Assembly (NCBI RefSeq): GCF_003019035.1 | Contig: NZ_CP027447.1 | DNA: 64,000 nt | Direction: 5' to 3' (one strand) | From: Escherichia coli | GTDB lineage: Bacteria; Pseudomonadota; Gammaproteobacteria; Enterobacterales; Enterobacteriaceae | In this document: positions 972 through 59,976 of the stretch, piece by piece | Layout of the letters: the number at the start of each line of letters is the position of its first letter | Numbering within the stretch: position 1 is the stretch's first letter | Notes under the pieces: model-generated | Seen by the model: the letters and a program-made list of their open reading frames with translations, nothing else | Database searches by the model: none | What the model was told of the DNA's origin: nothing | Made by a program: the position numbers and the translations under genes

Positions 972-1724
972 TTATTGCAGCAGAAACTTCTCGAGGAACT
1001 GGCGGGTGCGAGGCTGCTGAGGATCGGCAAATAACGCTTTTGCTACCCCCTGCTCGACTATCCGCCCCTGGTCCATAAAAATCGCCCGGTCCGCAACATC
1101 CCGGGCAAAGCTCATTTCGTGCGTCACAATCACCATCGTGCGCTTTTCCTGCGCCAGCTGACGAATGGTGTTCAGGACTTCGCCCACCAGCTCTGGATCC
1201 AGCGCCGACGTTGGCTCATCAAACAAAATCACTTCAGGACGCATTGCCAGAGCACGCGCAATCGCAACGCGCTGCTGTTGACCGCCAGACAAACGACGTG
1301 GATAACTGGTTTCTTTACCGGCCAGCCCAACTTTCGCCAGCAGCTCGCGAGCGCGCGCCGTGGCCTCTTCTTTCGGTTCGCCTTTGACGATCACCGGCCC
1401 TTCAATAATGTTTTCCAGCACCGTACGATGCGGAAACAGATTAAAGTTCTGGAAGACAAACCCGACGTGCTGACGCAACTGGCGAATCAGCGATTTTTGC
1501 TGACTTAATGAACGTGCAGTATCAATAGTGATATCGCCAACGGTGATGGTTCCCGCTTCCGGTTGTTCCAGCAGATTTATGCTGCGTAGCAACGTGGTTT
1601 TGCCGGAACCACTTGGACCGATAATTGCCACTACTTCGCCAGGCTTTACCTCGAGGTCGATACCGTGCAGCACCGTCTGACCGTGGAATTTTTTCACCAG
1701 GTTCTTAACTTCAATGGCACTCAT
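972..1724 (-). CDS. tcyN: cystine ABC transporter ATP-binding protein
   Basis: 250 aa; Walker A GPSGSGKTT and ABC signature LSGGQQQR; adjacent to permease and dcyD. Confidence 0.93.
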   Translation of the reverse strand: MSAIEVKNLVKKFHGQTVLHGIDLEVKPGEVVAIIGPSGSGKTTLLRSINLLEQPEAGTITVGDITIDTARSLSQQKSLIRQLRQHVGFVFQNFNLFPHRTVLENIIEGPVIVKGEPKEEATARARELLAKVGLAGKETSYPRRLSGGQQQRVAIARALAMRPEVILFDEPTSALDPELVGEVLNTIRQLAQEKRTMVIVTHEMSFARDVADRAIFMDQGRIVEQGVAKALFADPQQPRTRQFLEKFLLQ

Positions 1725-2389
1725 TTGGGTTCCCTCTCCTGGCGATTAAGTTGATTCTCAAAATGGTTCTGCAACGTCGATAACACAGTCGCCATAATCC
1801 AGTAGATGAGCGAAGCCGCCAGGTACATGGTGAACACCTCCAGCGTGCGCGAGGTAATCAACTGCGCCTGACGGAACAGCTCCGGCACCTGGATTGTCGC
1901 GGCCAGCGACGTATCTTTTACCAGGCTGATAAAGCTGTTCGACAGCGGCGGCAACGCCACCCGCGCCGCCTGTGGCAAAATCGCGCGACGCATGGTCTGC
2001 CATGGCGTCATACCAATACTGGCTGCAGCTTCCCACTGACCTTTATCAATAGAAGAAATGGCGGCGCGCAGCGTTTCGGCAGCATAGGCGGCAGTGTTCA
2101 GCGACAGACCAATCATTGCTGACGGAATGGGATCTAGTTCGATGCCAAACTGCGGCAAGCCGTAATAGATCATAAACAGTTGTGCGATGAGTGGCGTACC
2201 ACGAAAAATAGAGATATAAAAACGCGCCAGCCAGCGCACGGGCCAGATTGGCGAAAGGCGCATCAGCGCGAGAATAAACCCTAGCAGTAAGCCAAAAAAC
2301 ATGCCGCCGATACTGAGTTGCAGCGTATACCCAGCCCCTTTCAGCAGGAACGGCAAGGAATCAATAACCAGTTGTATACTTTCTTGCAT
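1721..2389 (-). CDS. tcyL: cystine ABC transporter permease
   Basis: hydrophobic polar amino-acid permease-like protein; 4-nt overlap with tcyN; start trimmed to second ATG. Confidence 0.9.
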   Translation of the reverse strand: MQESIQLVIDSLPFLLKGAGYTLQLSIGGMFFGLLLGFILALMRLSPIWPVRWLARFYISIFRGTPLIAQLFMIYYGLPQFGIELDPIPSAMIGLSLNTAAYAAETLRAAISSIDKGQWEAAASIGMTPWQTMRRAILPQAARVALPPLSNSFISLVKDTSLAATIQVPELFRQAQLITSRTLEVFTMYLAASLIYWIMATVLSTLQNHFENQLNRQEREPK

Positions 2390-27697: not shown

Positions 27698-27784
27698 AAA
27701 TCCCGACCCTGAGGGGGTCGGGATGAAACTTGCTTAAGCAAGAAGCACTTAAAAAATTCGTTACACCAGGAAATCTGATGTGTT
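27698..27784 (-). ncRNA. dsrA: DsrA small regulatory RNA
   Basis: minus-strand 87 nt AACACATCAGATTTCCTGGTGTAACG...CCCGACCCCCTCAGGGTCGGGATTT matches DsrA as I recall it, ending in its terminator hairpin. Confidence 0.92.
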
Positions 27785-35955: not shown

Positions 35956-36185
35956 ATTGGATGAGCCAGTCAAGACTCAATCATTTTTTGAACAAATAGA
36001 TAATTTTTGCGCAACGGCAATAATTACCGGAAAAACAGCAATAAAGATTTATTATTATCTATGGTAATGGTTTTATTAATTCACCTAAACAATATATTAG
36101 CACCGAATTCAATTATACCTTTTTTGATTTCTGTGTCATGATAACCCCGTTATTAGCCTTTTATCGTCTTGTTTATATTTTTTGG

Positions 36186-36209
36186 GCCGGCATGATGCCG
36201 GCTTTTTTT
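36186..36209 (+). terminator. orphan intrinsic terminator-like hairpin
   Basis: gccggcatgatgccggc followed by seven T on the plus strand; no annotated plus-strand gene upstream. Confidence 0.4.
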
Positions 36210-45494: not shown

Positions 45495-46079
45495 TTACTC
45501 CCTGACAGGGTTCGTAGGCCACTCAATATCAGGTGCAGTTGATGTATCAACACGGTTCAGCAACACCCGATACTTCTTCCAGGCTTCCAGCAACGAGTTT
45601 TCTTCCTCCGTTGCAATTTCCAGATCTACAGCATCCTGAAGCGGCGCAATATGCTCACTGGCTACCTGCATCAGGCTTTTTTTTGTTTCTTCCGCCTCCC
45701 GGATCCGGAACAGTTTTTCTGCTTCCGTATCCTTCACCCAGGCTGTGCCGTTCCACTTCTGATATTCCCCTCCCGGCGATAACCAGGTAACATTTTCCGG
45801 TAACGGACCGAGTTCAGAAATAAATAACGCGTCGCCGGAAGCCACGTCATAGACGGTTTTACCCCGATGGTCTTCAACGAGATGCCACGATGCCTCATCA
45901 CTGTTGAAAACAGCCACAAAGCCAGCCGGAATATCTGGCGGTGCAATATCGGTACTGTTTGCAGGCAGACCGGTATGAGGCGGAATGTATGCATCACCTT
46001 CACCAATAAATTCACTGGTTCCGGCCAGCAGATTATAAATTTTTATGGTCCGTGGTTGTTCACTCATTCTGAATGCCAT
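45495..46079 (-). CDS. tfa: tail fiber assembly protein (lambda Tfa-like)
   Basis: 194 aa, matches lambda Tfa as I recall it. Confidence 0.9.
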
Positions 46080-54915: not shown

Positions 54916-57900
54916 TCAGGCACTGTATAATCCTCCGTCCCGACGTGATGACTGCATAATTGACACAACCCTGCTGTCGATCAGATCCACCAGCCCCCTG
55001 GCTGACTGCGTATCTATCTCGCCATTGCTCCCTTTATTCTGAATACTGATGTGATACACGGGAGAATAGACAAATCCGCCGCCACCATTCACATTGCCAA
55101 TGGCTCTGACCCCAAGAGAGCCGTCCGCTGCCCGCGTCAGTGGCATGATAGCTTCAGGCCCGGCCTCGCCCATCAGTCCGGCACCTTTCGCAAAAGCAAA
55201 ATACGTCGGCGTATCCACAATAGTGTTACTGTAAGCACTCAGATTTGCCGATGTGTAAACACCACCTTTTGCGTTTGCTACTGCCCCCGAAATCCATCCG
55301 CCTACCGTACCAAGCCACCCTCCGGCGCCGGAGAGTGATTTCAGTCCGTTAACAATGGCCGCATTCATCAGAATTTTTGAAACTTCCTGGAGAACTGAAC
55401 TCCCCCAGTTCCTCCAGTCAACAACATTCCCGGCCAGTGCATCGGAAATATTTGATACCAGCCCGTCCATGGTGGAAACGACAGCATCTGCCGCCTGCGA
55501 AGCATAATCAGTGGCACTGTCTGCCCAGTTCGTCAGCCCCTCCTGGAGTCCGGCATTCCAGTTACTGCGTAAAGCATCAGCCTTTGCATAATAATCCTGC
55601 TGATCGCTGAGACGCTCTTCCAGATATTTTTTATTCAGTTCTTTCTCCTGTTTCCACAGGGCTTCTTCAATTTCTCCGGCCTGATACTGTCTCAGCAGCT
55701 CGTTATTTTTCTGCTCAAACGTCTGCCGGATACTCCACATTTCCTGGAGTCGTTCACGCATCCGTGAGCCTTCACCATATCCCAGCAACTGCGCGTCGTC
55801 AGATGCCCGGGCACTGGCATTACTGTCCGCCAGACTGCTCTCATACGCAGCAAGCTGCTCACGAATCTTTTTCTGGTCGATGAGTGCTGCATTCTGCAAA
55901 AGCGTTTTTTTCTGCGCTTCTGACAGGGTTGATAATTCGCCCTGACTGACCTGATATTTCATCTTAGCCAGTTCAGTATTCTGCCCTGCCAGTGCTATCT
56001 GCTCTTTCTGCTGTTTAATCAGCCGTTTATAAATATCTTCTGTTTTTTCCGCCTCGGTCTTTTTATGCGCTTTGGGTTTATTTGCCTGATTATTTCGCCA
56101 TGCATCCAGTGAGTTATTTATATAATTCAGTCTTGCTGTCTGATATGCCTCTCCCACAAAGCCGAGATCATCCGCAGCATAACCCAGGCGGGCACGCTCA
56201 CGGGCTTCCCCCTTCAGGCGGGACAGAGCCAGTTCGCGCTCGCTGTTATTCAGTGCGGTCTGCTGTTTATCATCCAGGGTTGCCTGTGGCAGCCGTAACG
56301 GTACATTCACCAGCCCCTGACGCTGCTGAAGTAACTCATTACCAAGCCCGAGAAGGCGATTAAACTCGGTATGCTGCCCATTCATGATCAACAGGGACTG
56401 ATACGCTTTGTTTTGTTCCGCTGCCTGTTGACGGATCAACGCAACCCGCCGCTCCTCCAGCCCGGCAAGCACATCCTGAATGGATTGCGCTTTGCCCTGC
56501 ATTTGTGTGAGGCGAGACTGTTCAACTGCCAGTTGATTTGTTGCTTCGGCAAGCCCTTCTGTGACAGTTTTTACCGACGTCATGTGGTTAATCATAAAAC
56601 CGTTATCGGTTGTCCAGCCCGGGTTTGCCAGCACGTACTGATAGCCAGCAATTTTTTCCTGTAAGGATTTAATCTTACTTTTCTGCTCGTCAATTAACCT
56701 GTTCTGCTCCTTCAGTGCCTGCCGCGTCTTTTCCTCATTATCTGACGCTTCAGGAAGCGACATTGCCGACGTTTTCTGGCGAATTTCGTCGATTGTTGCG
56801 GCATACTGGCGTGCAGATTCTCTGGCCTGCTCCTGATTCTGATACATCGTGTACCAGGCCGCGGCCCCCAGCATGACAAGCCCCGGCACACCCCCAACCA
56901 GTCCCAGTGCTCCACTTAACAGACGACTCCCCGCTGACGTGACAGTATTCAGCGTTGTCTGTGCTGCTGTTCTGGCCGCAATATTACGGGTAAGTGATGC
57001 CTGGGCAGCAGCCAGTTTCGCTTCTGCGGCTGCCTGCCTTTCGGTACCGCGAGCAGCAACAACCGCCTGTTGCGCACGATAAACCGCCGCACGCGCCCTG
57101 GCTGTTGCTATCTGTGTCCCCCGAAGTTGCGCTTCCGCAAGAGCCACTTCGTTTCTGGCTGCAGTAATTAATCCGGCAGTTGCAGATCCAGCAGAAGACG
57201 CCATATTGCCAAAATATCGGGCTACCCCGACGGCAACCAGAGCACCGGCAGCGGTTGCCACAGTGTCAATATTGCCTGCAATACCATTCAGCACACCAGA
57301 GAGCGTCTTTGTCACTCCGCTTGCCTCGTTCGCACCACCAACCCAGGCCATAAAGGCGTTTTCAACTTTGGTTGCAGAGGATGAAACAGTATCAGGCATT
57401 GCTGCATATTCATCACGTAACGCCCCAAGCTGACTAATCAGTGCAGGAACAACCTTATCGGCGGTCAGTTTTCCGTTATCCGCCATGGCCTTCAGATCCT
57501 TACGGGCAACACCCATTCCCGCAGCCAGCGCACGAATAACACGATCGCCGTTCTCATTCACAGAGTTAAATTCTTCACCGCGCAGCACTCCCTGCGCCAG
57601 TGCCTGACTGAACTGCGTGATCACCGAACTGGCTTCTGCTGTACTGGCACCGGATAATTTCAGCCCCGTGGAGATCGCCTCGGTGACTTTCAGTACCTCC
57701 TCAGAACTGTAGCCATACTCCCGCATGGAAGCTGCAGAGCGGGCAAAAAGGCTGGCGTTATCCGAAAACGCCGTCCCCGTTCTCTGGCTGATTGCCATTA
57801 ATTCACGTTGTGATGCCTGAAAATCATCACTGGACTGCGTGGCCTGCTTCAGACGGGCATTGACTGAATTCCACTCATCGGCGAGAGAAATAAGATGACC

Positions 57901-58149
57901 GGTAGCAAAAGCCCCGGCAAATGCCTCCGCCATATTCAGTGCCGAAGACTTAGCTGTATTTATCTGATCCGTCACTTCTACCAGTGCACGCCGCATTTCA
58001 CGGGATGCTGCAGCGGACTGTCGGCCTCCGTTCTGCATGGTGCGGTAGTAATCCTGCCCCATGCGCGAAGCCCGGGCGATCTCTGACTGGAATGACCGGG
58101 AGTTTGCCGAGATTTTAATAATCAGTTCACGTAATGTCGCCACACTCAT
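54916..58149 (-). CDS. H: tail tape measure protein
   Basis: 1077 aa, Ala/Gln-rich coiled-coil, position between GT and M. Confidence 0.92.
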   Translation of the reverse strand: MSVATLRELIIKISANSRSFQSEIARASRMGQDYYRTMQNGGRQSAAASREMRRALVEVTDQINTAKSSALNMAEAFAGAFATGHLISLADEWNSVNARLKQATQSSDDFQASQRELMAISQRTGTAFSDNASLFARSAASMREYGYSSEEVLKVTEAISTGLKLSGASTAEASSVITQFSQALAQGVLRGEEFNSVNENGDRVIRALAAGMGVARKDLKAMADNGKLTADKVVPALISQLGALRDEYAAMPDTVSSSATKVENAFMAWVGGANEASGVTKTLSGVLNGIAGNIDTVATAAGALVAVGVARYFGNMASSAGSATAGLITAARNEVALAEAQLRGTQIATARARAAVYRAQQAVVAARGTERQAAAEAKLAAAQASLTRNIAARTAAQTTLNTVTSAGSRLLSGALGLVGGVPGLVMLGAAAWYTMYQNQEQARESARQYAATIDEIRQKTSAMSLPEASDNEEKTRQALKEQNRLIDEQKSKIKSLQEKIAGYQYVLANPGWTTDNGFMINHMTSVKTVTEGLAEATNQLAVEQSRLTQMQGKAQSIQDVLAGLEERRVALIRQQAAEQNKAYQSLLIMNGQHTEFNRLLGLGNELLQQRQGLVNVPLRLPQATLDDKQQTALNNSERELALSRLKGEARERARLGYAADDLGFVGEAYQTARLNYINNSLDAWRNNQANKPKAHKKTEAEKTEDIYKRLIKQQKEQIALAGQNTELAKMKYQVSQGELSTLSEAQKKTLLQNAALIDQKKIREQLAAYESSLADSNASARASDDAQLLGYGEGSRMRERLQEMWSIRQTFEQKNNELLRQYQAGEIEEALWKQEKELNKKYLEERLSDQQDYYAKADALRSNWNAGLQEGLTNWADSATDYASQAADAVVSTMDGLVSNISDALAGNVVDWRNWGSSVLQEVSKILMNAAIVNGLKSLSGAGGWLGTVGGWISGAVANAKGGVYTSANLSAYSNTIVDTPTYFAFAKGAGLMGEAGPEAIMPLTRAADGSLGVRAIGNVNGGGGFVYSPVYHISIQNKGSNGEIDTQSARGLVDLIDSRVVSIMQSSRRDGGLYSA

Positions 58150-58160
58150 TCTCCGGACGA

Positions 58161-58185
58161 AAAAAAACCGCCGAAGCGGTTTTTG
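58161..58185 (-). terminator. intrinsic terminator closing the moron, immediately upstream of the tape measure start
   Basis: minus strand aaccgc ttcg gcggtt hairpin followed by seven T. Confidence 0.65.
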
Positions 58186-58191
58186 TATTCT

Positions 58192-58344
58192 TTAAAGAAG
58201 TCCGGCCTTACGCCTTGCTTCCTGAAGATATTCATCATCCGTTTTTTGTGAAACGGAACTATCTGCATTGCAAATTAAATCACTACCGCAATGCTTACAT
58301 TTAATCACCTCTTCTTTGTTCGGGTCTGCACAGGGATTCTTCAT
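58192..58344 (-). CDS. hypothetical small Cys-rich protein (50 aa), moron gene
   Basis: MKNPCADPNKEEVIKCKHCGSDLICNADSSVSQKTDDEYLQEARRKAGLL; starts 8 nt after the upstream ORF stop; no clear SD. Confidence 0.4.
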   Translation of the reverse strand: MKNPCADPNKEEVIKCKHCGSDLICNADSSVSQKTDDEYLQEARRKAGLL

Positions 58345-58352
58345 GTCATTGT

Positions 58353-58526
58353 TTACCATTTGTTATTCATATGGCTTCTCATTTCCAGGATTACAAGTGA
58401 ATGGATCAGAGCAACAATAAAGATCATCGAGCCATATATCCACCACCTTAAAAATGAGCAACCTTTGCTTTTCGTGATAATCGCCGGAATCAGCCCTAAA
58501 ATTATTGAAATAAGTACGAATTCCAT
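58353..58526 (-). CDS. hypothetical small membrane protein (57 aa), moron gene; candidate superinfection-exclusion protein
   Basis: SD AAGGAGG 5 nt before ATG; product MEFVLISIILGLIPAIITKSKGCSFLRWWIYGSMIFIVALIHSLVILEMRSHMNNKW with two hydrophobic segments. Confidence 0.55.
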   Translation of the reverse strand: MEFVLISIILGLIPAIITKSKGCSFLRWWIYGSMIFIVALIHSLVILEMRSHMNNKW

Positions 58527-58583
58527 CGATGCCTCCTTACTTACTCAATAAAACGGGAATAATAATTCAGTTATGTGGAAAAT

Positions 58584-58874
58584 TCATCGGGATGCAACAA
58601 ATAACGCCCTCTCAATCTCAGCAAGTGGATCGCCCATATTATTTTCACAGGCGCATTCCCACTGAAGAAGTGCATCATTCAGTGGAACTTTAACCCCCTG
58701 CGCACCGTAAACAGCTGAAACAATCTGGGCAGCACGGATATCAGCCCGTTCGTCCCCCAGCGGGCTGAACCTGTCAAATTCTGCCCACATCATGATTTCT
58801 GATGCGGACATTTCCCGGCGTAATTCTGACAATGTACGCCCCATCCTGAGTGCCAGCATCATCAGAAAACGCAT
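58584..58874 (-). CDS. T: tail assembly chaperone T segment (made as G-T fusion by -1 frameshift)
   Basis: ORF in the -1 frame relative to G, open from the slippery site; lambda G/GT paradigm. Confidence 0.8.
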   Translation of the reverse strand: MRFLMMLALRMGRTLSELRREMSASEIMMWAEFDRFSPLGDERADIRAAQIVSAVYGAQGVKVPLNDALLQWECACENNMGDPLAEIERALFVASR

Positions 58875-58885
58875 CCCCGGAAGCG

Positions 58886-59272
58886 CTACTTTTTTTTAAC
58901 CTCGCCGGCATCACTGATCAGTTCCAGAGACTGCCGAAGAAGCCGCGCATGCACCGGGCCATACACGGCAATCACCTGTTCACGATCATCCTCTGAAAAT
59001 ACAGGTTGCAGTCCGGTATCACACAGAACATCAATGAACAGTTCAACATCTGCCTCCAGATTTCGGCGGGCGCGCTCCGCAACGGATAACGGTGTCTCAT
59101 CATCTTTTGCTTTAACGATCTCCTGCCAGCGCAACCAGGCTTCTGCAGAAGGTTCCCGTAATACAACCGTTGCTCCTTCCCATTCAGGCACATCAACAGT
59201 TTTATGGCGAAACCCCGACATCGTTGCCAGTGCCAGATTACGGATATTTTTAGTCATCACACCCATCCTCAT
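58886..59272 (-). CDS. G: tail assembly chaperone G
   Basis: 128 aa acidic protein between the major tail gene and T. Confidence 0.85.
   Translation of the reverse strand: MRMGVMTKNIRNLALATMSGFRHKTVDVPEWEGATVVLREPSAEAWLRWQEIVKAKDDETPLSVAERARRNLEADVELFIDVLCDTGLQPVFSEDDREQVIAVYGPVHARLLRQSLELISDAGEVKKK
58889..58895 (-). promoter_or_regulatory. programmed -1 ribosomal frameshift slippery heptamer A AAA AAG
   Basis: G frame ends GAG GTT AAA AAA AAG TAG; shifting back one nt reads AAA GTA GCG CTT CCG GGG ATG into the T ORF. Confidence 0.75.
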
Positions 59273-59976
59273 TAACTGACGGTTACAGTGCAGGAAGTGG
59301 AGGTCACTTTGTTAACCGGGCTTGCTGAATCAGAAATCTCGCAGGTATATGCGCCCGCATCACCGGATACTGCCAATGCCTTACTGAACGTTGCCGCCGT
59401 CTGTCCGGAAACAGGAGAACTACCTTTCTTCCAGACATAAGAATAAGGCGGCACACCTCCGGCAGCCTCAACCACCATTTCGAGTTTCGCTCCGGCAGAA
59501 ACCTGCAGCGTGCTGTTTAAATCGACCTTCACTTTCAGCGGCTCTGTCGCCAGCACAGGTTTACCTTTCAGGCGCAGGGAAAACGTTGCAGCCACAACAC
59601 CATTGGTTCCTGCAGACCAGGTATGCTGACGCACCTCTGCCATAAAGGTAAATCCGTTTCCTGACGGAAAAATAACTTTAAAGCCATACGTGGTGTCATT
59701 GTCATAGGCACTGCGCAACGCGTTCTGGGCAGCATTGAGGTAAAAGTTGCCTGACATGGAAATCTCTGACGCGGCACCAAGACCGTTAATATTTTCCTGC
59801 TCAACAGAACACAGCGTGGTGACATCAATATCCTGCTTTTGTCCTGCGGTAAACTGCACCTCTTTGATTGTACAGCTCAGGCCAAGATAGCTGGCAGAAT
59901 CCAGGGTTTCTGCTGTTACCGGTGCAGACGAAATCATAATTTTCGTCAGTTGCGAACGCTCAAAATTAGAGGACAT
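59272..59976 (-). CDS. major tail protein with C-terminal Ig-like domain
   Basis: 234 aa; position upstream of G/GT; Ig-like assignment is by eye. Confidence 0.8.
   Translation of the reverse strand: MSSNFERSQLTKIMISSAPVTAETLDSASYLGLSCTIKEVQFTAGQKQDIDVTTLCSVEQENINGLGAASEISMSGNFYLNAAQNALRSAYDNDTTYGFKVIFPSGNGFTFMAEVRQHTWSAGTNGVVAATFSLRLKGKPVLATEPLKVKVDLNSTLQVSAGAKLEMVVEAAGGVPPYSYVWKKGSSPVSGQTAATFSKALAVSGDAGAYTCEISDSASPVNKVTSTSCTVTVS

What the first reader, a model, noticed from the sequence alone, without database searches (positions are those of the whole stretch)
58584..59272. Programmed -1 frameshift at A AAA AAG producing the G-T fusion
The last sense codons of G are GTT AAA AAA AAG TAG. 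The A AAA AAG heptamer (58889..58895) is the classic dnaX-type slippery site. The -1 frame is closed just upstream (TAA at 58896..58898) and open from the slip site through the whole T ORF, as expected for a GT fusion. Lambda uses G GGA AAG at the same junction.
Basis: partly seen in the sequence, partly recalled or inferred. Interest (0 to 1): 0.4.

Follow-up and report, generated by a model that had tools for sequence, protein, structure and literature searches.

The report
Phage tail chaperone G-T frameshift site
This is the well-known programmed -1 frameshift that lets a lambda/HK97-type prophage make a short and a long tail-assembly chaperone from one message; the site is real, conserved and correctly interpreted, but ordinary.

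Summary
On the minus strand, a 123-aa gene (58886..59257; the longest ORF starts at 59272) ends GTT AAA AAA AAG TAG. The heptamer A AAA AAG is at 58895..58889. The -1 frame is closed by TAA (58898..58896), then open for 101 codons to TGA (58586..58584).

Pfam places the upstream protein in Phage_TAC_1 (HK97 gp13 type, 64% identical) and the -1 ORF in Phage_tail_T (lambda T family). The pair lies between the major tail gene and the tape measure gene.

Across about 160 related loci T is always in the -1 frame. The Lys codon AAG preceded by A is invariant, and the -1 peptide V-A-x-P-G-x-[RK]-F-L-M is conserved from the first codon after the slip.

HK97 carries an annotated "-1 frameshift" CDS at the aligned position. 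An identical A AAA AAG TAG junction from a 68%-identical Stx-prophage homologue gave 7% frameshifting in a published E. coli reporter.

Corrections:
- The junction peptide is ...EVKKK-VALPGM, with three Lys.
- G is not in lambda's G family.
- No dnaX-like stimulator is established.

Unresolved: whether the 8-A run adds transcriptional slippage, and whether the adjacent stop codon stimulates the slip. Low interest; RefSeq's automated annotation (NCBI PGAP) simply omits the fusion.

The parts
58886..59257 (-). Gene G: tail assembly chaperone of 123 aa (13.9 kDa). The longest ORF starts 15 nt further upstream at 59272, where its ATG overlaps the TAA of the major tail gene as TAATG.
   Evidence: Pfam PF06222 Phage_TAC_1, E 2.8e-58, 195.7 bits against a cut-off of 25. 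PHROG 344. 64% identical to HK97 gp13. The start NCBI's PGAP pipeline chose in a 99.9% identical genome corresponds to 59257.
58889..58895 (-). Slippery heptamer A AAA AAG, the last two sense codons of G.
   Evidence: Read directly. It is the only one of 34 AAAAAAG copies in the window with the right phase and ORF context. It is invariant in the close clade while flanking synonymous sites vary.
58890..58897 (-). Run of 8 A that contains the heptamer; a possible RNA polymerase slippage tract.
   Evidence: Relatives have runs of 3, 4, 6, 8 or 9 A at the same place.
58896..58898 (-). TAA in the -1 frame; it closes the T frame immediately 5' of the slip site.
58886..58888 (-). TAG stop codon of G, directly 3' of the heptamer (a possible 'shifty stop').
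   Evidence: A stop follows AAG directly in most enterobacterial clades of the family.
58584..58889 (-). T segment in the -1 frame: 101 codons (VALPGMRFLMM...FVASR) plus TGA. The GT fusion is 59257..58889 joined to 58889..58584, giving 224 aa and 25.2 kDa.
   Evidence: Pfam PF06223 Phage_tail_T, E 9e-19. PHROG 14766, a 224-position profile, matches G at 1-121 and T at 123-222. Translation verified.
58812..58882 (-). Imperfect hairpin that starts 6-7 nt 3' of the heptamer; a candidate stimulator, not established.
   Evidence: The 75-nt stretch 58810..58884 folds at -27.2 kcal/mol, z -2.9, with 1 of 200 shuffles as good. It is not conserved across the family: the consensus fold is only -6.7 kcal/mol with negligible covariation. 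In one search a single divergent sequence gave both the compensated and the broken pairs.
58899..58903 (-). Shine-Dalgarno-like GAGGT, 3 nt 5' of the heptamer; probably incidental.
   Evidence: It is lost in relatives with GAAGTT, GAAGTTATT or TCGGCCAGA at that position.
59272..59976 (-). Major tail protein gene with a C-terminal Ig-like domain (upstream neighbour).
   Evidence: PHROG 158 major tail protein, E 1.7e-107. Weak, sub-threshold Pfam hints to Ig-like and tail-tube families, only Ig_2 just reaching its cut-off.
54916..58149 (-). Tape measure protein gene, 1077 aa (downstream neighbour).
   Evidence: Pfam Phage_HK97_TLTM E 8.7e-92, TMP_3 and Tape_meas_lam_C. PHROG 339.

Best explanation
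Most ribosomes translating the tail-chaperone gene G terminate at TAG and release the 123-aa G protein.

A few per cent slip back one nucleotide on A AAA AAG. tRNA-Lys re-pairs from AAG to AAA, and the preceding tRNA-Lys from AAA to AAA. These ribosomes read GTA GCG CTT CCG GGG ATG... in the -1 frame and make a 224-aa G-T fusion (...EVKKK-VALPGMRFLMM...).

By analogy with lambda (inferred, not tested here), many copies of G and a few of GT coat the tape measure protein. The T domain then recruits the major tail protein, and a fixed slip frequency sets the G:GT ratio needed for tail assembly.

Shown here: the sequence anatomy, family membership of both parts, gene order, and conservation of the slip codon and of the -1 reading frame.

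Inferred: that the shift happens at this locus, its frequency, and the chaperone function.
For: - Anatomy: heptamer in phase, -1 frame closed by TAA just before it and open for 101 codons after it.
- Families: G is Phage_TAC_1 and T is Phage_tail_T. Lambda T is in the same Pfam family. A 224-position PHROG profile spans G plus T.
- Gene order: major tail gene, G, T, small inserted accessory gene ('moron'), tape measure gene, identical to HK97. HK97's record has a joined CDS 'translated due to a -1 frameshift'.
- Position: the window's K123 (AAG) aligns with the K of HK97's CGG GAA AAG.
- Other annotated relatives: HK446, HK106 and Burkholderia phage Bcep176 (GGA AAA AAG) also carry joined CDSs.
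- Conservation: in about 160 IMG/VR (public viral contig collection) loci T is always -1 relative to G. 'A AAG' is invariant. The -1 peptide V-[AST]-x-P-G-[MIV]-[RKQ]-F-L-M is conserved with synonymous third-position changes (GCG/GCA/GCC/GCT, CCG/CCC/CCT, GGG/GGT/GGC/GGA) starting at the first codon after the slip and upstream of any conserved Met.
- Experiment on a homologue: a 75-nt insert identical to the Stx2 phage 1717 junction (AGA AAA AAG TAG; that phage's G is 68% identical to the window's) gave 7% +/- 0.79 frameshift product in an E. coli GST-MBP reporter (PMC3711429 Table S2). A G GGA AAG member of the same cluster gave 6%.
- The lambda G:GT ratio of about 30:1 and its role in tail assembly are reviewed in PMC5009743.
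Against: - There is no protein or reporter data for this exact sequence.
- RefSeq (NCBI's PGAP pipeline) annotates G and T as separate CDSs, with T starting at ATG 58862.
- A weak GGGGA lies 11 nt before that ATG, so some independent initiation of a shorter T cannot be excluded.
- The 8-A run could also give the same product through RNA polymerase slippage.
- No stimulatory element is demonstrated. No Rfam family matches, including none of its curated frameshift elements. The SD-like element is at the wrong spacing, and the hairpin is not conserved.
Confidence: 0.86

Rival explanations
1. The fusion arises mainly from transcriptional slippage. RNA polymerase adds one extra A on the 8-A tract, and standard translation of the A9 mRNA gives the same ...VKKKVALPGM... 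protein.
For: - The run is 8 A, and relative L070 has 9.
- PMC3711429 states that homopolymers of eight or more are typical of transcriptional realignment. In the same reporter A7 gave 10% and A9 gave 40%.
- Adding one A predicts exactly the same protein as a -1 ribosomal slip, so the product cannot tell the two routes apart.
Against: - Homologues with the same junction logic have only 6 A (Stx2 phage 1717, Bcep176), 4 A (HK97-like) or 3 A (G GGA AAG clade).
- The 6-A version still gave 7%.
- What is conserved is the tRNA-Lys slip codon in phase, not the run length.
- High-efficiency slippage in bacteria is described for runs of 9 A or T (PMC5009743).
Confidence: 0.09
2. There is no recoding. 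T is an independent gene started at ATG 58874 or 58862, as annotated by NCBI's PGAP pipeline, and the heptamer is coincidental.
For: - PGAP calls a separate 92-aa 'phage tail assembly protein T'.
- AAAAAAG is common in this window (34 copies).
- PMC9307594 reports A AAA AAG in 68 E. coli genes.
Against: - The ATG at 58874 is ATT, ATA or GTA in relatives, yet the peptide upstream of the conserved Met stays conserved in the -1 frame right back to the slip codon.
- There is no good Shine-Dalgarno sequence.
- Curated HK97-group records join the two ORFs.
- A homologous junction frameshifts at 7%.
- Only this heptamer has the required context.
Confidence: 0.03
3. G-T is one gene broken by a frameshift mutation in a decaying prophage (a pseudogene).
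For: - The neighbouring inserted accessory gene ('moron') is split by indels.
- Single-ORF G-T proteins exist in the databases (P0001-P0003).
- A7 variants of the tract occur.
Against: - The two-frame arrangement is the norm in 901 E. coli genomes and in all clades, including viable phages such as HK97, HK446 and HK106.
- The rare single-ORF forms differ from the wild-type junction by small indels: two A missing in P0001 and an 11-nt deletion in P0002 (compared by eye). Each is seen on one contig.
Confidence: 0.02

Closest known systems
Phage HK97 gp13 / gp14 (NC_002167; joined CDS 'translated due to a -1 frameshift'), and HK446 and HK106
   Same: - Same Pfam families and the same gene order: major tail gene, G, GT, small inserted accessory gene ('moron'), tape measure gene.
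- G is 64% identical.
- The fusion has the same length, 224 aa.
- The slip Lys codon is at the same aligned position.
   Different: - HK97-type sites read CGG GAA AAG, a non-canonical heptamer G GAA AAG, and the G stop is five codons further on.
- The window has the canonical A AAA AAG abutting TAG.
- The accessory gene in the slot is different: HK97 has gp15, the window a split zinc-ribbon membrane protein.
Tail assembly chaperone pair of Stx2-converting phage 1717 and E. coli O157 prophages, tested by Antonov et al. 2013 (PMC3711429, 'Phage_TAC' cluster)
   Same: - G is 68% identical.
- The heptamer is the same A AAA AAG, followed directly by TAG.
- The -1 linker V-A-x-P-x-I-R-F-L-M is the same.
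- It is experimentally shown to frameshift at 7% in E. coli.
   Different: - The run is 6 A (AGA AAA AAG) rather than 8.
- T is shorter in that record (80 codons).
- The window's own sequence was not the one tested.
Phage lambda G / G-T (G GGA AAG; Levin, Hendrix & Casjens 1993; Xu, Hendrix & Duda 2004, 2013, 2014)
   Same: - Same position in the tail operon and the same logic: a -1 shift near the end of G.
- The T domain is in the same Pfam family, PF06223.
- A low-level shift sets the G:GT ratio.
   Different: - Lambda G is PF06894 (Phage_TAC_2), and BLAST finds no similarity to the window's G.
- The heptamer is G GGA AAG.
- Lambda's G stop is five codons after the heptamer, and lambda T is longer.
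E. coli dnaX frameshift signal
   Same: The heptamer A AAA AAG is identical and relies on the same shift-prone tRNA-Lys(UUU).
   Different: - dnaX has a Shine-Dalgarno-like element about 10 nt upstream and a stem-loop about 6 nt downstream, reaches about 50% efficiency, and gives a shorter product.
- Here the SD-like element is 3 nt upstream and not conserved, and the hairpin is unproven.
- The expected efficiency is a few per cent, and the product is longer.
- No Rfam family matches.
Burkholderia phage Bcep176 gp69 / gp69' (also phiE125 gp13-like)
   Same: It is a distant member of the same G family (29% identity) with the same heptamer, GGA AAA AAG, and an annotated joined CDS noted as 'lambda T equivalent'.
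   Different: The heptamer lies 13 codons before the G stop, and the -1 frame is open for hundreds of nucleotides upstream.

Membership tests
G/GT-type tail assembly chaperone frameshift (lambda paradigm; Xu, Hendrix & Duda 2004 class) | The gene pair lies between the major tail (tube) gene and the tape measure gene. | tested here: met
   Major tail gene 59272..59976, G 58886..59257, T 58584..58889, tape measure gene 54916..58149, all on the minus strand. A small inserted accessory gene lies between T and the tape measure gene, as in HK97.
G/GT-type tail assembly chaperone frameshift (lambda paradigm; Xu, Hendrix & Duda 2004 class) | The second ORF is in the -1 frame relative to the first and overlaps or abuts its 3' end. 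| tested here: met
   T is in the -1 frame in every relative where it could be located, apart from the two A7 loci.
G/GT-type tail assembly chaperone frameshift (lambda paradigm; Xu, Hendrix & Duda 2004 class) | A slippery sequence that allows tRNA re-pairing lies within the window where both frames are open. | tested here: met
   A AAA AAG exactly fills the two-codon window between the -1-frame TAA and the 0-frame TAG.
G/GT-type tail assembly chaperone frameshift (lambda paradigm; Xu, Hendrix & Duda 2004 class) | The downstream ORF has no independent translation start; T is made only as the fusion. | tested here: inconclusive
   The -1 peptide is conserved upstream of any conserved Met, and ATG 58874 is not conserved. 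However, ATG 58862 exists with a weak GGGGA 11 nt upstream, and NCBI's PGAP pipeline calls it as the start.
G/GT-type tail assembly chaperone frameshift (lambda paradigm; Xu, Hendrix & Duda 2004 class) | Two proteins, G and GT, are actually produced at a fixed low ratio. | not testable with these tools
   Only indirect evidence: the junction of the 68%-identical homologue with the same heptamer and stop gave 7% in a reporter.
Pfam PF06222 Phage_TAC_1 (HK97 gp13-like chaperone) | Score above the curated gathering threshold over the full profile. | tested here: met
   195.7 bits against a cut-off of 25, profile positions 1-124 of 124. 64% identity to HK97 gp13.
Pfam PF06223 Phage_tail_T (lambda T-like domain) | Score above the curated gathering threshold. 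| tested here: met
   68.1 bits against a cut-off of 25.9, profile positions 1-70 of 73. Lambda T scores 54.1 bits in the same family.
Pfam PF06894 Phage_TAC_2 (lambda gpG family) | Sequence similarity to lambda gpG. | tested here: not met
   The window's G hits only PF06222, while lambda G hits PF06894. BLASTP between the two GT fusions finds nothing better than E = 2.1. It works like lambda G but is not in that sequence family.
dnaX-type tripartite frameshift signal | Heptamer A AAA AAG in phase. | tested here: met
dnaX-type tripartite frameshift signal | A Shine-Dalgarno-like stimulator about 10-14 nt 5' of the heptamer. | tested here: not met
   The only SD-like element (GAGGT, 58903..58899) is 3 nt upstream and is lost in relatives. 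The spacing rule is from my own knowledge of Larsen et al. 1994.
dnaX-type tripartite frameshift signal | A stable stem-loop about 5-9 nt 3' of the heptamer. | tested here: inconclusive
   The window clade has a hairpin at 58812..58882; the 75-nt stretch containing it folds at -27.2 kcal/mol, z -2.9. The family consensus is only -6.7 kcal/mol, starts 22 nt downstream and shows negligible covariation. No Rfam family matches.
Programmed transcriptional slippage site | A homopolymer of A or T long enough for efficient RNA polymerase realignment (9 or more in well-studied bacterial cases). | tested here: inconclusive
   The run is 8 A. Reviews describe high efficiency at 9, while PMC3711429 counts 8 or more as typical. 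Homologues manage with 3-6 A.

The most novel reading that the evidence does not exclude
In this chaperone family the conserved event may not be the textbook two-tRNA slip. It could instead be a single tRNA-Lys slip on A-AAG while a stop codon waits in the A site (a 'shifty stop').

The only invariant is A AAG followed by G. Several clades have heptamers that cannot re-pair in tandem (G GCA AAG, A GAA AAG, G GAA AAG), and most clades place TAG or TAA directly after AAG.

In the window's clade, the expansion to 8-9 A would additionally allow RNA polymerase slippage. GT output would then come from two routes, and homopolymer indels (A7 variants are seen) could switch GT off.
Probability: 0.3. 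Interest if true: 0.3.

Novelty: already known. Interest (0 to 1): 0.1.

Why it matters
Its value is mainly for annotation. RefSeq's pipeline lists G and T as two separate proteins in the two genome records inspected; similar DNA occurs in 901 of 5426 complete E. coli genomes, where both genes are listed by name. The biologically required 224-aa GT fusion is therefore missing from protein catalogues and from proteomics search databases. The site adds nothing new to the understanding of recoding or tail assembly. The family-wide table of slip sites is a small comparative data set for asking whether a single tRNA-Lys slip next to a stop codon suffices for low-level programmed frameshifting.

Tried and rejected
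- **dnaX-like stimulators.** The upstream GAGGT is 3 nt from the heptamer and not conserved, so I rejected it as a stimulator.
- **Small hairpin directly after the heptamer.** It starts 2 nt downstream, too close to act, and the 60-nt fold containing it scores z = -0.03.
- **The 70-nt hairpin at 58812..58882.** It scores z -2.9. An 8-sequence alignment gave 4 compensated and roughly as many broken pairs, all from one divergent sequence. A 21-sequence family alignment gave only a weak consensus with negligible covariation. I kept it as unproven.
- **Rfam.** An E-value scan of 58500..59300 gave one chance-level hit and no other family.
- **Direct similarity to lambda G/GT.** BLASTP found none; only the T domain is linked, through Pfam.
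- **Heptamer rarity as an argument.** I rejected it because the heptamer is over-represented in the window. I replaced it with a context test.
- **Supplement search.** A word-start search of the PMC3711429 supplements for 'tail assembly' found nothing. A substring search then found the Phage_TAC rows.
- **Not done.** I did not run structure prediction or the large protein-representative search, because family membership was already unambiguous.

Full report
**What is in the sequence**

The feature is on the minus strand. Reading 59300 down to 58540, an ORF that begins at ATG 59272 (longest form) or ATG 59257 ends with GAG GTT AAA AAA AAG TAG.
- The heptamer A AAA AAG occupies 58895..58889 and is in phase with G.
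- The A run is eight long (58897..58890).
- The G stop TAG is at 58888..58886.
- In the -1 frame the triplet TAA (58898..58896) sits directly before AAA AAA. From GTA (58889..58887) that frame is open for 101 codons to TGA (58586..58584). All of these were re-verified by script.

- The junction peptide is ...GEVKKK-VALPGM..., with three lysines.
- The run is A8.
- The likely G start is 59257. That ATG has a GAGGA 7 nt upstream, is the start chosen by NCBI's PGAP pipeline in a 99.9% identical genome, and matches the N-termini of homologues and position 1 of the Pfam profile.

**Is it more than chance?**

The bare heptamer is not informative. The window holds 34 AAAAAAG copies against 14.8 expected from shuffles. 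PMC9307594 notes A AAA AAG in 68 E. coli genes. Context is what counts. Of the 34 copies, only this one is in phase at the end of a long ORF, with 139 open codons upstream, 0 codons to the 0-frame stop and 101 open codons in the -1 frame. The stretch in which a -1 shift could yield a fusion is bounded by TAA and TAG. It is two codons long and is exactly the heptamer.

**What the genes are**

- The upstream protein is Pfam PF06222 Phage_TAC_1 (E 2.8e-58, full-length match).
- The -1 ORF is PF06223 Phage_tail_T (E 9e-19).
- PHROG 14766, a 224-position 'tail protein' profile, matches G at positions 1-121 and T at 123-222, so fused versions are already in phage databases.
- The flanking genes are a major tail protein with an Ig-like domain (59272..59976) and a 1077-aa tape measure protein with HK97-type and lambda-type domains (54916..58149).
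- Lambda T falls in the same Pfam family as the window's T. Lambda G is in a different family (PF06894), and BLAST finds no similarity between the two fusions. The system therefore works like lambda G/GT, but its G part belongs to the HK97 gp13 family.

**Origin**

The window is E. coli chromosome carrying an HK97-like prophage. The region matches 901 of 5426 complete E. coli genomes, one of them at 99.9%, and 11 E. coli phage records. In the two RefSeq records inspected, PGAP annotates 'phage tail assembly chaperone' and 'phage tail assembly protein T' as separate CDSs with no slippage.

**Comparative evidence**

- HK97 itself has gp13 plus a joined CDS noted 'translated due to a -1 frameshift'. 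A 'moron product' gp15 (a small inserted accessory gene) and then the tape measure gene follow, which is the same order as here.
- The window's G is 64% identical to gp13, and its last Lys (AAG) aligns with the Lys of HK97's CGG GAA AAG.
- HK446 and HK106 carry the same joined CDS. Burkholderia phage Bcep176 (29% identical G) has GGA AAA AAG and a joined CDS labelled 'lambda T equivalent'.
- Two scans of IMG/VR (public viral contig collection) gave 160 loci, some of them the same contigs twice. In every locus where T could be located it is in the -1 frame.

In the window's own clade the heptamer is invariant while adjacent codons vary synonymously (GGC/GGT/GGA, GAG/GAA, CTG/CTA/TTG). One 78%-identical relative has A AAA AAA TAG.

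Across clades the heptamers are AAAAAAG, GGGAAAG, GGAAAAG, AGAAAAG and GGCAAAG. The only invariant is A AAG followed by G.

Immediately after that codon the -1 frame encodes V-[AST]-x-P-G-[MIV]-[RKQ]-F-L-M-x-L-A-L-R-[ML]-G-R-T-L in all enterobacterial clades. The third-position changes are typical of purifying selection in that frame (GCG/GCA/GCC/GCT, CCG/CCC/CCT, GGG/GGT/GGC/GGA). This conserved stretch lies upstream of the only conserved Met. In the window's clade it starts six bases after a -1-frame stop. It can therefore be translated only by ribosomes arriving from G.

**Experimental evidence from a homologue**

Antonov et al. 2013 (PMC3711429) report a 'phage tail assembly chaperone' cluster of 41 genes similar to an HK97 protein. 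Two tested members frameshifted at 6% and 7% in an E. coli GST-MBP reporter. [quoted passage not shown]. This is identical to the G-T junction of Stx2-converting phage 1717 (L087:1246-1320). That phage's G is 68% identical to the window's, and it has the same heptamer abutting TAG.

**Mechanism and open details**

The most likely mechanism is -1 ribosomal slippage of tRNA-Lys on A AAA AAG. It would give a few per cent of a 224-aa, 25.2 kDa GT beside a 123-aa, 13.9 kDa G. The function would follow the lambda model, in which G and GT bind the tape measure protein and T recruits the tail tube protein (PMC5009743). That function is inferred, not tested here.

Three details are unresolved.

1. Stimulators.
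   - The SD-like GAGGT is 3 nt upstream, whereas the stimulatory spacing known from dnaX is about 10 nt (my knowledge of Larsen et al. 1994). It is lost in relatives.
   - A 70-nt hairpin at 58812..58882 begins 6-7 nt after the heptamer; the 75-nt stretch 58810..58884 folds at -27.2 kcal/mol and z -2.9.
   - The family-wide consensus is only -6.7 kcal/mol, starts 22 nt downstream and has negligible covariation.
   - The region also encodes a conserved peptide, which confounds any structural signal.
   - No Rfam family matches.
2. The adjacent stop codon. Most clades put TAG or TAA directly after AAG, and some have heptamers that cannot slip in tandem (G GCA AAG, A GAA AAG). This fits a single tRNA-Lys slip while the A site holds a stop, the 'shifty stop' idea of Weiss et al. 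1987 as listed in PMC5009743. It is a hypothesis, not a result.
3. Transcriptional slippage.
   - Eight A is at the edge of what slips in bacteria. Reviews describe high efficiency at 9, and PMC3711429 counts 8 or more as typical.
   - Adding one A to the mRNA gives the identical protein.
   - Homologues with 3-6 A keep the arrangement, and the 6-A version gives 7%. So ribosomal slippage is the conserved route, and polymerase slippage is at most an additional contribution here.

**Rivals**

- Independent initiation of T is contradicted by the conserved -1 peptide upstream of any Met, by the non-conservation of ATG 58874 (ATT, ATA or GTA in relatives) and by the curated joined CDSs.
- A pseudogene reading is contradicted by the universality of the two-frame layout, which includes viable phages. 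The rare single-ORF G-T proteins (P0001-P0003) differ from the normal junction by small indels and are each seen on one contig.

**Verdict**

It is a textbook feature. The frameshift class is known (lambda; Xu et al. 2004). This gene family has annotated frameshifts (HK97, HK446, HK106, Bcep176), and the same heptamer-plus-stop junction has been tested in a homologue. The only gap is annotation of this prophage lineage. Interest is low.

Noticed in passing
window 58192..58526 (minus strand), with a hairpin at 58163..58184: The slot between T and the tape measure gene holds a small inserted accessory gene ('moron'). Two ORFs (57 aa with a membrane helix, 55 aa with a zinc ribbon) are the halves of a single 113-aa protein. 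That protein is intact in E. coli NZ_OW967966 (WP_021543566.1). The window copy has a 1-nt and a 6-nt deletion. This is the same slot as the HK97 gp15 moron, and a terminator-like hairpin with a T-run follows it.
   Followed up: partly
L046 and L051 (IMG/VR) at the A tract; protein clusters P0004-P0006: Some copies have 7 A instead of 8. G then runs on for about 36 codons in the +1 frame, and T can no longer be reached by a -1 shift. About 63 deposited sequences show this form, against several hundred with A8. Whether these are sequencing errors or real homopolymer indels was not resolved.
   Followed up: partly
L167, L119, L128, L073, L085, L169 (G-T junctions of relatives): Several clades of the same chaperone family have non-canonical heptamers (G GCA AAG, A GAA AAG, G GAA AAG) in which only tRNA-Lys can re-pair. 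Most clades place a stop codon directly after AAG. This hints at a single-tRNA slip next to a stop rather than a tandem slip.
   Followed up: partly
P0002 (222 aa, JGI metagenome) and P0003 (225 aa): These are single-ORF G-T fusions related to the Stx-prophage type. P0002 reads ...SARKK-EIRFLM..., which is consistent with an 11-nt deletion removing TAG and the linker. Such a variant would make only GT and no free G.
   Followed up: no
window 59272..59276 (minus strand): The stop of the major tail gene and the ATG of the longest G ORF overlap as TAATG, while the better-supported G start is 15 nt downstream. HK97 and HK446 instead have an annotated terminator between the two genes. Control of G dosage relative to the tube protein may therefore differ.
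   Followed up: no
L001 (ON470580.1, phage vB_EcoM-606R7), locus 1428..2101: In this phage record the G-T region is annotated as three separate 'tail assembly chaperone' CDSs, with T split in two. This is another sign that automated annotation handles the locus badly.
   Followed up: no
window 27698..27784 (-), 36120..36209 (+), 45538..45736 (-): Rfam gathering-level hits to the sRNAs DsrA and rseX and to the 'IS009' element. They show that most of the window left of about 46 kb is E. coli chromosome, not prophage. No tRNA genes are present in the window.
   Followed up: no
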